From: a virus
DNA length: 28,758 nt
Reading direction: 5' to 3' (one strand)
Virus genome (UHGV): UHGV-0099614
Every line of letters begins with the position of its first letter. The stretch's first letter is position 1. This document shows, piece by piece, positions 24,001-27,000 of this stretch. The position numbers are program-made.

Positions 24001-27000
24001 TCTAATCGGTCGTACACTTGGGCTTCTCTTAAATAAATTAGCTCTGTTTTATCGCATGGTTCTAAGTGCTTTATTTTATTTAAAAATAAATCAATCTTAT
24101 CACTGAGAAATAGAGCGTTAAGATAACATTCGAAAATCGGAGATACCCAAGCTTCATCAGATAACAATGGGGTGAGATAATTAACCGCGTTCAATGGTAA
24201 ATTACATAAAATAAATTTATCGCATAAGTTTAATATGTTCGCAGGGTTTATTAGCATAAACTTTTTAGAATCTAATTCTAAAAAATCTTGCGCTTTTTTA
24301 TCCAGCAGTTGGATTTCATTCTTATCGTCAACCGAACATACTAGCGCCCTAAGGTACAAGTTCAAGAAGGAATTAATATAATCATCTCCTGTTTCAATTA
24401 TCCCTCCATTGTCTATCCAGTTATTTACGTCTTTAGCTTTCATCTGATTATTCTCAATAGCAAAAATAAGAAATGAAAACTTTTCCAAATCCAAAACATC
24501 AGATACTAATTCAAATTTAATATCGGGAGTGCTCATTCCTATTGAGGACTGCTCTAGATACTCCGCAGAAAAGGAGTCTATCTCCCTAACTTTATCAATA
24601 TGCAACTTTCCTAAATTATAAAGTCGACTATCTGAAAAATAGGTAAGTTTAAGCAAATTGGTTAAAACAGCGATATATCTATCATCTTTTCCGTCATCAA
24701 TATCAGCTAGTAATTGGATTATTAACCGGTCAACATTATCTTTTTCCTGTTTACTAAGTGAAACATAATGATTACGTTGGTTTCGAGTTATGAGTAAACA
24801 GGTTTCAGTGTATAGCCGAAGAATCCTTGAATTATTGGATGAATAATACTTATCCAGATTCTGAGCCAGTTCAAACGCAAAAACAAAATCTTGGACTCTT
24901 AAAGCACCGCGAACTAATCCAGTTAACTCTTGCTCGGATAAATCATAAACCTCTGTGTTATGATAGCTTTTAGATAGCTCTTCCATTGAGGCTAATCGCT
25001 CAAAGAACACCTCTTTGAGATAGAACCCATCTATTTTTAAATCTGAATATCTTTTTTTAGCTAACTCTTCAGAGGTTCTCGATTCCAAATCGATCAATAT
25101 AGATGTAATGACCTCACGAACATCACCAGGGAGGTCATTGTTCTGTAGCAATTTTAGAAGATCATTTTTTGATGATGATATCGAGCCTTTTACCAACTCA
25201 AGCTTTACATTCAAAGCATTCAATAGTAGATATACATCATTTTCTAATGAATGAATATTATTAAGAACGTCTAGCTTTTCACGAACTCTGCCTAATTCTC
25301 TATAGCAAATATCTCTCATTATACTGTCTATAACAGTCCGCAGATCCCTAGATTTAATACTACGAATTATATATTCGTATTTATCACCTATGATATTGTC
25401 ACCTACGCCACTGTGTATTTGATCTACCATCATCGTCCATTTCTTCTATTTGTATATATTTTTGTTTCCAATAATGTTATCACCAGAACCACTGTGATTC
25501 TGAGTCACTGACCCAATATTCGTGTTTTGCTCAGGCTGAATCAGTTTTAAAATTTGCTGTATTTCTGATGATTCGTTCAATTTTCGCTCGATAACATGCT
25601 CTCCATAATCCTTAAGCTCAAGAGTATTTACTTTATAAGCTAAAGTCTCCAATAAAGTATCGTCAACAATCCATCCATGTAGCTTTTCTTTCAAGAAACC
25701 TGTAGTTATTGCAACGCCGTTCTTAAACCCATCATAGAGTATTCCTGATAGCAGAGTACTTGTTAAAAAATCCATATCCCCCCCTTAAATTGCTTATTTA
25801 AACCTGTTGTCGCCGACTAAAACTGACCCATCCTTTTTGAGTTTTCGAGGTACAAAAGATGGTGTCTGAACTTGCTATCTGTGTTCTGGCTATATAGGAC
25901 TAGTCCATTAAATGATGATTACCTACTTGAACCCATCATAGTGCCCGCCAATGGGCTTAACATACCCTAATGTAATTAATGTCTCAATGTGACTAGATCG
26001 CCCTTTTGCACTTTAGGACTGATAGATCCGCTTCTCGCTTAAGGTTGCCCGCACCCTTCTGCATATGTTACTGAAGATGGTCAAGCAACATGCAAATGGG
26101 TAGTCAACTGGATGCGAATACTCATATTTTGTCTTATCCGACCATGTAAACACATCCCAGAGGGGTGTATATTGATGATTTAGGCTATTCAAGATCGCTA
26201 GTGTCGAAAACAATCTGCGACTTATCCATCTCCAGGCAATCTGGAGGCAAACCCAGCATAGCCTCAGCATCACCTACATTACCGATAATGGCGTAGTCAT
26301 CATATCCCCATCTTTCCAGATCGAGATTGCTTTCGGGATAACCAGGGGATAGTAACAACCATTCACGCAACTCTTTCAGTGTCTTTTCCATAATCAATAA
26401 GTTCCATGTTTAAGATTGGCTGACCACCAGCTACAGTCAATGATTATCCCATACGGGTAAAGCGGTGTCGGGCTATTTCTTCCAACTATCCCCCAATGAG
26501 TAGGGTTATCAAGAACCAGCAAGATAGCGGCAGTTGGAAGAGTAAACATTGATGTTTGAGGCATAACGCAAATTTGCGTTATGCCTGATTAACGGTAAAC
26601 CGGAACTACCAGCTATCATCCCCCTCTCAATAGGGTATACCGTAATGACAAGGTGATACAAAGTCTCAATAGGGTTGTATAGGAACATTTTGACTACACA
26701 AAATGCATTATGTATCATTTGCACTTATATTCACAACCCTATTGAGACAATGCAATGAACGTTAGAATTTACTGCCGAGCATCAACTGAGGGGCAACACG
26801 CTGATCGAGCACTTACCAGCCTACGTGAATTTTCAAAATCAAAAGGCTGGCAGATTGCAGGAGAGTATATAGAAAATGCTAGCGGGGCGAAGCTTGAGCG
26901 CGTAGAGCTTATGCGGCTATTGTCTGAAGCCCAGTCCGGCGATCTGTTGCTAGTGGAAGCTATAGATCGTCTGAGTCGCCTAGAACATAGCGCATGGGTC

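What the first reader, a model, noticed from the sequence alone, without database searches (positions are those of the whole stretch)
26489..26750. Repeat-rich region upstream of the serine recombinase: four copies of a CAAT(G)AGGGT-type motif and a perfect 26-bp palindrome
The motif ctcaatagggt(t) occurs at 26625..26636 and 26664..26675 in direct orientation and at 26734..26745 inverted, with a variant (caatgagtagggtt) at 26493..26506. The inverted pair flanks about 58 bp immediately upstream of the recombinase start codon. A perfect palindrome ggcataacgcaaatttgcgttatgcc lies at 26559..26584 with no T-tract after it. These could be recombinase binding or crossover sites (res/hix-like) or an autoregulatory operator.
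Basis: seen in the sequence. Interest (0 to 1): 0.5.

Follow-up and report, generated by a model that had tools for sequence, protein, structure and literature searches.

The report
Resolvase recombination site (res) with promoter
The repeats just upstream of this E. coli serine recombinase gene are most likely its own binding sites, a three-part "res" site that holds the DNA crossover point and the gene's promoter; this is an ordinary kind of system, here in an uncharacterised family on a small genomic island that carries phage-defence genes.

Summary
TCTCAATAGGGT occurs exactly three times (26625+, 26664+, 26736-), seen in 0 of 5000 shuffles. There is also a perfect 28-bp palindrome at 26559-26586. 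The proposed fourth copy is weak and not conserved.

Comparison with about 90 homologous loci shows a res-type site:
- **Site I:** copy 1 is the left arm of a 26-bp imperfect palindrome, TCTCAATAGGGT-AT-ACCGTAATGACA (26625-26650). Its centre, GGGTATACC, is conserved about 100-150 nt upstream of the recombinase gene across alpha-, beta- and gammaproteobacteria.
- **Sites II and III:** copies 2 and 3 are the outer halves of two accessory sites (26664-26695 and 26713-26747). Their inner halves hold the -35 and -10 of the recombinase promoter.
- **Co-variation:** the outer arm sequences change with the recombinase lineage.

The gene is the last one of an argW-integrated island (rolling-circle Rep, variable defence cargo, res, resolvase, attR). 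High identity among E. coli islands starts at site I.

Most likely function: resolving multimers of the excised, replicating island, plus autorepression. Nothing supports an invertible promoter: 0 of 548 genomes carry the flipped form, and the window has no second crossover site.

The palindrome is lineage-specific, lies outside res, and is unexplained.

Verdict: a new member of a known kind. All evidence is computational.

The parts
26625..26650 (.). res site I (candidate crossover site): TCTCAATAGGGT | AT | ACCGTAATGACA, i.e. 12 + 2 + 12 bp; the central AT is at 26637-26638
   Evidence: Imperfect palindrome. It is the only 26-mer in the window with two good half-sites 2 bp apart (31.2 bits against 10.7 for the next best). 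Its centre GGGTATACC matches exactly in 22, and with at most 1 mismatch in 42, of the 82 upstream regions scanned, mostly about 96-154 nt upstream of the ATG; there are only 21 exact copies in the 907 kb of fetched loci. High identity between E. coli islands begins here.
26664..26695 (.). res site II (accessory): strong left half TCTCAATAGGGT 26664-26675, 8-bp spacer, weak right half AACATTTTGACT 26684-26695 that contains the -35 hexamer
   Evidence: A half-site matrix built only from site I arms finds hits at +27 (+) and +47/48 (-) from the site I centre in related loci. In the window only the left half passes the threshold; the right half is at the 93rd percentile and is placed by homology with L005, L010 and L086.
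26713..26747 (.). res site III (accessory): weak left half TATCATTTGCAC 26713-26724 that contains the -10 hexamer, 11-bp spacer, strong right half ACCCTATTGAGA 26736-26747
   Evidence: Matrix hits at +75-77 (+) and +98-100 (-) in related loci. In the window the left half is at the 97th percentile and is inferred by position.
26663..26678 (+). Left arm of the perfect 16-bp inverted repeat GTCTCAATAGGGTTGT (contains half-site II-L)
   Evidence: pair I2.
26733..26748 (-). Right arm of the perfect 16-bp inverted repeat (contains half-site III-R; overlaps the likely 5' leader and the Shine-Dalgarno-like GAGA)
26690..26718 (+). Predicted sigma-70 promoter of the recombinase gene: TTGACT (26690-26695), 17-nt spacer, TATCAT (26713-26718)
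   Evidence: Consensus scan, 10 of 12 matches. The same hexamers sit at the same offset from site I in L004, L005, L006, L010 and L086. Not tested experimentally.
26755..27381 (+). Small serine recombinase (208 aa): resolvase catalytic domain plus C-terminal helix-turn-helix
   Evidence: Pfam Resolvase 2.2e-23; HTH_7 is weak (0.0029, below the cut-off). Invariant R8, S10, D71, R72 and R75 in alignment A1. The closest solved structures are Sin (2r0q, 1.5e-15) and gamma-delta resolvase.
26559..26586 (.). Perfect 28-bp palindrome AGGCATAACGCAAATTTGCGTTATGCCT; lineage-specific, outside res, function unresolved
   Evidence: The 11-bp arms are the same in every relative that has the segment, while the central 4 nt vary. 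It is absent from type-B islands, plasmids and viral contigs.
26494..26507 (+).
   Evidence: Scores -0.5 bits. TAGGGT is not conserved in L087, L004 or L094-L096. It is part of a 19-nt duplication: 26488-26506 against 26618-26636, 79% identical.
26185..26397 (-). Divergently transcribed small ORF (70 aa, phrog_35119), the conserved neighbour of res in many of these islands
   Evidence: A 58-aa homologue is found in L002 and L003.
27516..27539 (+). attR of the argW island: repeat of the 3' end of tRNA-Arg (3965-3988), TTCGATTCCTGCAGGGGACACCAT
   Evidence: Conserved island homology ends at 27538.
21871..26603 (.). Variable cargo region of the island (here gapS6b 22149-25433 and gapS6a 25446-25775, plus the small ORF), bounded on the right by res site I
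   Evidence: Pairwise BLAST against six other islands; NCBIfam GapS6a/GapS6b; different cargo in L002, L088, L089 and L090.

Best explanation
The repeats are the binding sites of the adjacent small serine recombinase. Together they form a roughly 123-bp res site (26625-26747) with three dimer-binding subsites.

- **Site I** (26 bp) is where the two strands would be cut and exchanged, at the central AT (26637-26638).
- **Sites II and III** are accessory sites that would assemble the synaptic complex between two directly repeated res copies.
- **Autorepression:** the inner half of site II carries the -35, the inner half of site III carries the -10, and the outer half of site III lies in the leader. 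Recombinase bound there should also repress its own gene.

The gene and its site are the last module of an argW-integrated island, ordered integrase, regulators, rolling-circle Rep with its origin, variable defence cargo, res-resolvase, attR. The most likely biological job is to turn multimers of the excised, replicating island (or cointegrates) back into monomers. This was recently shown for the unrelated Res/res of Salmonella genomic island 1 and is assumed for plasmid resolution modules.

- **Shown here:** the sequence anatomy, its conservation, its co-variation with the recombinase lineage, and its position.
- **Inferred:** binding, the crossover point, repression and the resolution role.
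For: 1. **Copy number.** Three exact 12-mers lie within 123 bp, seen in 0 of 5000 shuffles.
2. **Conserved half-site positions.** A half-site matrix built only from site I arms of 9 loci (58-100% protein identity) finds half-sites at the same six offsets from the site I centre in those loci: -12+, +2-, +27+, +47/48-, +75-77+ and +98-100-.
3. **Conserved centre.** GGGTATACC sits mostly about 96-154 nt upstream of the start codon. It matches exactly in 22, and with at most 1 mismatch in 42, of the 82 upstream regions scanned, which include homologues down to 45% identity. Only 21 exact copies exist in all 907 kb of fetched loci.
4. **Co-variation.** The outer arm words of site I recur downstream in the same locus about three times more often than in other loci (own-locus total 75; 0 of 5000 permutations reach it).
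5. **Independence from context.** The same architecture is found upstream of homologues on plasmids with unrelated neighbours: an Enterobacter IncFIB plasmid and pWW0, just after parA-parB-korA.
6. **Promoter.** The predicted promoter hexamers fall inside II-R and III-L.
7. **Protein.** It has the resolvase catalytic residues and a C-terminal helix-turn-helix; the closest solved relatives are Sin and gamma-delta resolvase. Between E. coli alleles, synonymous codon changes outnumber non-synonymous ones about 2:1, and the reading frame is intact in every allele compared.
8. **Single site.** There is only one site I in the window, which fits resolution between copies on a multimer rather than inversion.
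9. **Homology break.** The window and strain AR_0372 are identical over the 745 nt compared to the right of the site I centre, have 11 of 12 matches in the left arm, and are essentially unalignable beyond it.
10. **Precedent.** SGI1 Res/res removes island multimers, and its promoter lies inside res (PMC12217951). In plasmid resolution modules the res site doubles as the regulatory region (PMC6312765).
Against: - No experiment was done; binding, crossover and repression are all inferred.
- In the window itself the inner halves of sites II and III are weak (93rd and 97th percentile). The three-dimer model rests on relatives.
- In this strain the island's own integrase is truncated (homology to intact islands starts at 17987, inside the integrase gene). 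Excision, and hence any need for resolution, may no longer occur here.
- Accessory-site layout is not conserved across the family: distant homologues have three tandem direct half-sites. The synapse geometry therefore cannot simply be copied from Tn3 or gamma-delta.
- The break in homology at site I could also come from ordinary homologous recombination next to a conserved gene.
Confidence: 0.7

Rival explanations
1. Operator only. The recombinase, or a domesticated form of it, uses the repeats purely to repress its own promoter and perhaps the divergent small ORF. No recombination takes place at this locus any more.
For: The two strongest accessory copies form a perfect 16-bp inverted repeat that brackets the -35/-10. 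The island in this strain has lost its integrase, so a resolution substrate may never arise.
Against: Site I lies 40-90 bp upstream of the promoter and is the best-conserved element of the whole region, including its exact centre, across phyla and on plasmids. A pure operator would not need a conserved symmetric core. The catalytic residues are intact and invariant.
Confidence: 0.1
2. Cargo-exchange or capture site. Site I serves mainly as a site-specific crossover point at which different cargo modules are swapped between related islands or plasmids, or integrated from circular intermediates. This would explain why the variable defence region ends at site I.
For: In most of the 550 E. coli genomes with this recombinase, high-identity homology starts at 26625 (26604-26625 in the six islands compared by BLAST). 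The right side is identical and the left side unrelated in AR_0372. Five or more different cargos abut the same res. The same res family is present on enterobacterial plasmids.
Against: No second site I or half-site remnant lies at the left edge of the cargo (about 21870). Divergence on the Rep side and the recombinase side roughly track each other across islands, as expected for ordinary homologous exchange. Resolvase-type sites with accessory subsites normally favour intramolecular deletion, not integration (established knowledge of Tn3/gamma-delta resolvase topology).
Confidence: 0.08
3. Invertible promoter (hix/fimS-like switch). The recombinase flips the 54-bp promoter segment between the 16-bp inverted repeats, or a larger segment between site I and a distant inverted partner.
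For: A perfect 16-bp inverted repeat brackets the promoter. Site I has the 26-bp, 12 + 2 + 12 format of hix/gix sites (recalled from the literature, not tested).
Against: A query carrying the flipped segment finds no full-length high-identity match in 548 E. coli genomes; the best is 85.6% in the identical strain. A 54-bp segment is far too short for a serine invertase synapse (established knowledge). The arms are half-sites, not complete 26-bp sites. There is no second site I in the window.
Confidence: 0.02
4. The repeats bind a different protein, such as the product of the divergent small ORF or a host factor, and are only coincidentally next to the recombinase gene.
For: The small ORF (phrog_35119) is a frequent neighbour in E. 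coli islands.
Against: The site travels with the recombinase gene on plasmids and in genomes where the upstream neighbour is unrelated, for example a cation transporter or parAB-korA. It is also present in islands lacking the small ORF (L088, L090). Arm sequences co-vary with the recombinase lineage.
Confidence: 0.04

Closest known systems
Tn3 / gamma-delta resolvase with its res site
   Same: Both have a small serine recombinase with an N-terminal catalytic domain and a C-terminal helix-turn-helix. Both have a res of about 115-125 bp directly upstream of the resolvase gene, in a divergent intergenic region, made of three dimer sites built from inverted 12-bp half-sites with different spacers. 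In both, crossover is expected at a central AT of site I and the promoter is buried in the site, giving autoregulation.
   Different: The protein is only distantly related (E about 1e-10 to 1gdt). The geometry differs: I 26 bp, 13-bp gap, II 32 bp, 17-bp gap, III 35 bp, against 28-22-34-5-25 for gamma-delta (from the literature, my recollection). The half-site sequence is different. The host element is an integrative island, not a transposon.
SGI1 Res (S027) and its restored res site (Veress, Szabo & Kiss, Sci Rep 2025; PMC12217951)
   Same: A resolvase gene near one end of an integrative, replicating genomic island. A three-box res lies upstream and contains the -35/-10 of the resolvase gene. 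Its shown role is removal of island multimers.
   Different: SGI1 Res groups with the Tn3, gamma-delta and Tn5044 resolvases and has Tn3-like box spacing (28-22-30-2-25). The present protein belongs to another lineage and has other spacing. In SGI1 the res is usually broken by an integron; here it is intact and borders a variable defence cargo.
Sin resolvase (staphylococcal plasmids) and its resH site
   Same: Closest solved structure by sequence (2r0q, E 1.5e-15, aligned over residues 6-201, including the helix-turn-helix). Distant members of the present family have tandem direct accessory half-sites, which recalls Sin site II.
   Different: Sin res has only two Sin-binding sites, separated by an HU/IHF-binding spacer (literature, my recollection). 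In the E. coli clade there are three sites with inverted halves, and the site I-site II gap is only 13 bp.
Plasmid multimer-resolution modules (RP4/RK2 ParA; the IncP-9 resolvase of pWW0/NAH7)
   Same: The pWW0 protein is a 48%-identical family member. It has the same GGGTATACC site upstream and sits right after parA-parB-korA. NAH7 maps show the resolvase lying between the par genes and oriV-rep (PMC12421886). A resolution site that doubles as the regulatory region is described for IncP-1 (PMC6312765).
   Different: I found no paper that dissects the res of the IncP-9 type. A ParA-annotated resolvase gene on a Salmonella plasmid record (AB571791) is only about 35% identical. The element here is chromosomal and integrative.
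Hin/Gin/Cin/Pin invertases with hix/gix sites
   Same: Small serine recombinases. Site I has the same 12 + 2 + 12 = 26-bp format. PHROGs labels the protein 'DNA invertase' (phrog_125).
   Different: No second site in inverted orientation. No inversion polymorphism. Accessory sites are present. NCBIfam invertase models score far below their cut-offs (37.9 against 272 bits).

Membership tests
Small serine recombinases (resolvase/invertase, PF00239) | N-terminal catalytic domain with the nucleophilic Ser and the conserved Arg/Asp residues | tested here: met
   Pfam Resolvase 83.4 bits against a cut-off of 23.3. Y6, R8, S10, Q14, D71, R72 and R75 are invariant in 15 homologues.
Small serine recombinases (resolvase/invertase, PF00239) | C-terminal helix-turn-helix DNA-binding domain | tested here: inconclusive
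   HTH_7 scores 18.1 bits, below the cut-off of 23.8. However, residues about 180-200 align with the helix-turn-helix of Sin and gamma-delta resolvase in phmmer alignments.
Three-subsite res (Tn3/gamma-delta type) | Three recombinase-dimer sites made of inverted half-sites, upstream of the resolvase gene | tested here: met
   Six half-site positions recur at fixed offsets in 9 loci. In the window itself only four of the six halves score well.
Three-subsite res (Tn3/gamma-delta type) | Site I with a symmetric central dinucleotide where crossover occurs | tested here: inconclusive
   A central AT within GGGTATACC is conserved family-wide, and the homology break in E. coli maps within about 5 nt of it. 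The cleavage position itself was not and cannot be determined with these tools.
Three-subsite res (Tn3/gamma-delta type) | Canonical subsite lengths and spacing (28-22-34-5-25) | tested here: not met
   Here the layout is 26-13-32-17-35.
Three-subsite res (Tn3/gamma-delta type) | Resolvase promoter inside res (autoregulation) | tested here: inconclusive
   The predicted -35 lies in II-R and the -10 in III-L. Neither the promoter nor repression was measured.
Three-subsite res (Tn3/gamma-delta type) | Recombinase-dependent resolution of two directly repeated sites | not testable with these tools
   Needs an in vivo or in vitro resolution assay.
Sin/beta-type res | Two recombinase sites separated by a spacer bound by HU/IHF, with site II made of direct repeats | tested here: not met
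   The E. coli clade has a 13-bp site I-site II gap and inverted halves. Distant family members do show tandem direct half-sites.
Invertase systems (hix/gix) | Two complete crossover sites in inverted orientation flanking an invertible segment | tested here: not met
   There is a single site I in 28.7 kb. No flipped form occurs in 548 genomes.
Invertase systems (hix/gix) | Fis-dependent enhancer within or near the recombinase gene | not tested
   No tool for Fis sites was available, so this was not pursued.

The most novel reading that the evidence does not exclude
The family-wide invariant crossover core (GGGTATACC) lets resolvases of diverged islands and plasmids recombine with each other's site I. 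On this reading res acts as a site-specific junction for swapping defence-cargo modules between elements, a serine-recombinase counterpart of module exchange at Tn21-family res sites. This would explain why the variable region of the argW islands ends at or within about 35 bp of the site I centre.
Probability: 0.12. Interest if true: 0.6.

Novelty: new member of a known kind. Interest (0 to 1): 0.3.

Why it matters
- **Annotation.** It gives a concrete function to a 'recombinase family protein' found in about 10% of complete E. coli genomes (550 of 5426), including O157:H7. It also defines the right-hand edge of a hotspot that carries varied anti-phage cargo next to argW.
- **Family-wide marker.** It provides a sequence signature (GGGTATACC centre, lineage-specific arms, fixed distance to the ATG) for res sites of an uncharacterised resolvase lineage that also serves IncP-9 and other plasmids. 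This helps in mapping module boundaries and possible targets of res-hunting transposons.
- **Limits.** It does not reveal a new mechanism.

Tried and rejected
- **Invertible promoter.** I built the flipped construct and searched 5426 E. coli genomes. The best full-length identity was 85.6%, so no flipped allele exists.
- **Second crossover site (inversion or cassette excision).** Paired half-site scans at spacers 0-11 found nothing comparable to site I. TATCAATAGGGT at 18865 has no partner half.
- **Site remnant at the left cargo boundary.** None was found. That boundary instead holds iteron-like repeats and a hairpin, a probable Rep origin.
- **Palindrome as a terminator.** There is no T-tract on either strand and it lies between divergent genes.
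- **Palindrome as a known RNA.** No credible Rfam hit.
- **Palindrome as a repeated operator.** Its arms are unique in the window.
- **Palindrome as a mobile or repeated element.** It occurs only at this locus in E. coli, and not in plasmids or viral contigs. The 5 metagenome hits are all the same locus.
- **Literature on this recombinase.** 'argW' plus 'serine recombinase' returned only an unrelated KplE1 paper.
- **NCBIfam.** It gives no specific family.
- **Deletion between the two direct copies (39 bp).** Not tested, because the product cannot be told apart without strain-specific left flanks.
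Full report
**1. Context**

The window is an E. coli chromosome segment running fadL - mlaA - yfdC - tRNA-Arg(CCT) ... dsdC. It is identical in the region of interest to strain G47-1.

- tRNA-Arg is at 3913-3987. Its 3' end (3965-3988) is repeated at 27516-27539, which is attR.
- Between these lie two things. The first is a P22/Sf6-like prophage remnant (4113 to about 17900).
- The second, from 17987, is a small island: HTH regulators, a rolling-circle Rep (20343-21395), the anti-phage pair gapS6b/gapS6a (22149-25775, minus strand), a 70-aa ORF (26185-26397, minus strand) and a 208-aa serine recombinase (26755-27381).
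- The finding is the 357-bp divergent intergenic region in front of the recombinase gene.

- TCTCAATAGGGT occurs exactly at 26625 (+), 26664 (+) and 26736 (-), and nowhere else in the window.
- In 5000 dinucleotide-preserving shuffles of the intergenic region, no 12-mer reached three copies.
- Copies 2 and 3 extend to a perfect 16-bp inverted repeat (26663-26678 and 26733-26748) with 54 bp between the arms.
- The palindrome is a perfect 28-mer at 26559-26586. The longest palindrome in the shuffles was 22 bp.
- The 'variant' fourth copy (26494-26507) scores -0.5 bits on the half-site matrix, against 16.8 for the real copies. It is not conserved in relatives that share the segment.

**3. Comparative evidence**

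I collected homologues of the recombinase (798 proteins at E <= 1e-10) and fetched 80 loci from reference genomes (45-97% identity; alpha-, beta- and gammaproteobacteria). I added E. coli and plasmid loci. Reading the 200 nt upstream of each gene showed a common plan.

*Conserved centre.* An imperfect palindrome lies mostly about 96-154 nt upstream of the ATG, with a nearly invariant centre, GGGTATACC.
- It matches exactly in 22, and with at most one mismatch in 42, of the 82 upstream regions scanned (80 genome loci, the window and pWW0).
- Only 21 exact copies exist in all 907 kb of fetched DNA, so practically every occurrence is this site.

*Lineage-specific arms.* The outer arms differ between lineages: TCTCA... 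in enterobacteria, GGTTCG... in rhizobia and relatives, GTATCA... in pseudomonads. The same outer words recur between the palindrome and the ATG of the same locus about three times more often than in other loci (0 of 5000 permutations reach the observed total). This co-variation with the protein lineage is the signature of binding sites for the recombinase itself.

*Independence from neighbours.* The site also travels with the gene when the upstream neighbour is unrelated. Examples are a cation transporter on an Enterobacter IncFIB plasmid, and parA-parB-korA on pWW0.

**4. Anatomy in the E. coli clade**

A weight matrix built only from site I arms of nine loci (58-100% protein identity) detects half-sites at the same offsets from the site I centre in those loci: -12 (+), +2 (-), +27 (+), +47/48 (-), +75-77 (+) and +98-100 (-). 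This defines three dimer sites:

| Site | Coordinates | Layout |
|---|---|---|
| I | 26625-26650 | 12 + 2 + 12 bp |
| II | 26664-26695 | 12 + 8 + 12 bp |
| III | 26713-26747 | 12 + 11 + 12 bp |

- The gaps between sites are 13 and 17 bp, giving 123 bp in all.
- The predicted promoter TTGACT-17-TATCAT (26690-26718) has its -35 in the right half of site II and its -10 in the left half of site III.
- The right half of site III lies in the leader, just before the ATG.
- In the window only the outer halves of sites II and III are strong. The inner halves are at the 93rd and 97th percentile and are placed by homology with L005, L010 and the Enterobacter plasmid, where all six halves score well with identical spacers.
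- In distant homologues the accessory layout differs: +27 (+), then three tandem direct half-sites at +50, +65 and +79. Site I and the first accessory site are the conserved core, and the rest is plastic.

**5. What the recombinase is**

- The Pfam Resolvase domain scores well. The C-terminal helix-turn-helix is weak in Pfam but aligns with those of Sin and gamma-delta resolvase.
- The catalytic residues are invariant.
- NCBIfam has no specific model for it. PHROGs calls it 'DNA invertase'.
- Between E. coli alleles, synonymous codon changes outnumber non-synonymous ones about 2:1.

**6. Resolution rather than inversion**

- The window contains only one site I (31.2 bits against 10.7 for the next candidate).
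- A query carrying the promoter segment flipped between the 16-bp arms finds no matching allele in 548 E. coli genomes.
- The element has a rolling-circle Rep and a candidate origin: iteron-like repeats at 21785-21802 and a hairpin at 21837-21865. Its excised form would therefore be expected to replicate and form multimers.
- A direct precedent exists. The restored Res/res of Salmonella genomic island 1 is a three-box site containing the promoter, and it removes island multimers (PMC12217951).
- Plasmid resolution modules are described in the same way (PMC6312765). The 48%-identical pWW0 homologue sits in the IncP-9 maintenance region.

**7. The edge of the variable region**

- 550 of 5426 complete E. 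coli genomes have this recombinase. In most of them the high-identity match to the window starts exactly at 26625.
- Pairwise BLAST against six other islands shows conserved backbone at 17987 to about 21860 and at 26604/26625 to 27538. Unrelated cargo lies in between: GapS6ab, two hypothetical proteins, a ParA-like protein, an HNH endonuclease, or a GTPase.
- The window and AR_0372 are identical over the 745 nt compared to the right of the site I centre, match at 11 of 12 positions in the left arm, and then become unalignable.
- This fits past crossovers at site I. It does not prove them, because divergence on the two backbone sides roughly tracks and the left cargo edge has no site remnant.

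**8. The palindrome**

- It lies in a segment of about 105 bp that only 'type A' islands have (those with the 70-aa version of the small ORF). The segment is found at >=99% identity in 24 E. coli genomes, plus 2 more at 87.5%.
- 'Type B' islands, with a 58-aa ORF, lack it.
- The arms are unchanged in all relatives seen, while the central 4 nt vary (AATT, AAAT, ATTT, AGTC). The metagenome hits were, however, selected by requiring exact arms.
- It has no T-tract, no Rfam match and no other copy in the window. It is absent from plasmids and viral contigs.
- As RNA it would form a hairpin of -19 to -21 kcal/mol.
- It is not part of the conserved res. Its role is open: an operator for the divergent small gene, or a DNA hairpin such as a lagging-strand origin for the rolling-circle replicon.
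- A 19-nt duplication, consisting of ATCCCCC plus a half-site-like 12-mer (26488-26506 against 26618-26636), suggests that the extra segment arose by a duplication involving the left arm of site I. I cannot explain the mechanism.

**9. Verdict**

- The repeats are best explained as the res site of the adjacent resolvase, with an overlapping autoregulated promoter. This is a new, uncharacterised member of a well-known kind of system.
It is wrong about the geometry of the crossover site, and the palindrome and fourth copy do not belong to the site.
- Everything rests on sequence comparison. Binding, the cleavage position, repression and the resolution role remain to be tested.

Noticed in passing
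window 4113-17900: A P22/Sf6-like prophage remnant is integrated at argW ahead of the island. It has an intS-type integrase, gtrA/gtrB-like O-antigen modification genes (5460-6736), a tailspike head-binding domain (8081-9841), a tail needle (11014-11886), a NUMOD4/HNH homing-endonuclease-like gene (11855-12388) wedged between structural genes, CII (15259-15624) and a LexA-like repressor (15947-16663).
   Followed up: partly
window 17987: Homology to intact argW islands (G47-1, AR_0372 and others) begins inside their tyrosine integrase gene. The Rep/GapS6/resolvase island in this strain has therefore lost most of its integrase and is probably no longer able to excise on its own.
   Followed up: partly
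window 21785-21865: Downstream of Rep there are iteron-like repeats (CATCAACATAACATCAAC; CGTCAACGTAACGTCAAC in relatives) and an 8-bp inverted repeat with a 13-nt loop (AATTCACG ... CGTGAATT). Both are conserved in all islands compared and lie immediately before the variable cargo. This is a candidate rolling-circle origin.
   Followed up: partly
window 21871-26603 and loci L002, L087-L090: The segment between the candidate origin and res is a cargo hotspot. It holds GapS6a/b here, and a ParA-family protein, an HNH endonuclease, a GTPase-domain pair, or other hypothetical proteins in other strains. In O157:H7 the recombinase module sits behind a different prophage remnant.
   Followed up: partly
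window 26185-26397 (-) and 26440-26483: The small ORF belongs to phrog_35119 (unknown function), with a conserved N-terminus (MEK.LK.LRE.LLLSP.YPE). Its putative promoter block is conserved between the two island types. The block contains weak recombinase half-site-like sequences: TCCCATACGGGT at 26447 (+) and ACTCATTGGGGG at 26490 (-).
   Followed up: partly
window 26488-26506 vs 26618-26636: A 19-nt direct repeat (79% identical), made of ATCCCCC plus a half-site-like 12-mer, occurs 130 bp apart and brackets the palindrome-bearing extra segment. It looks like a duplication of the left arm of site I. The mechanism is unknown.
   Followed up: partly
loci L015-L081 (alpha- and betaproteobacterial homologues): The accessory part of res is built differently in distant relatives. 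After the conserved half-site at +27 there are three tandem direct half-sites at about +50, +65 and +79, instead of two inverted pairs.
   Followed up: partly
window 418-1674: A 418-aa ORF between fadL and mlaA has no Pfam match. Other strains have ORFs of different length at this position (1032-1257 nt), suggesting a small variable locus.
   Followed up: no
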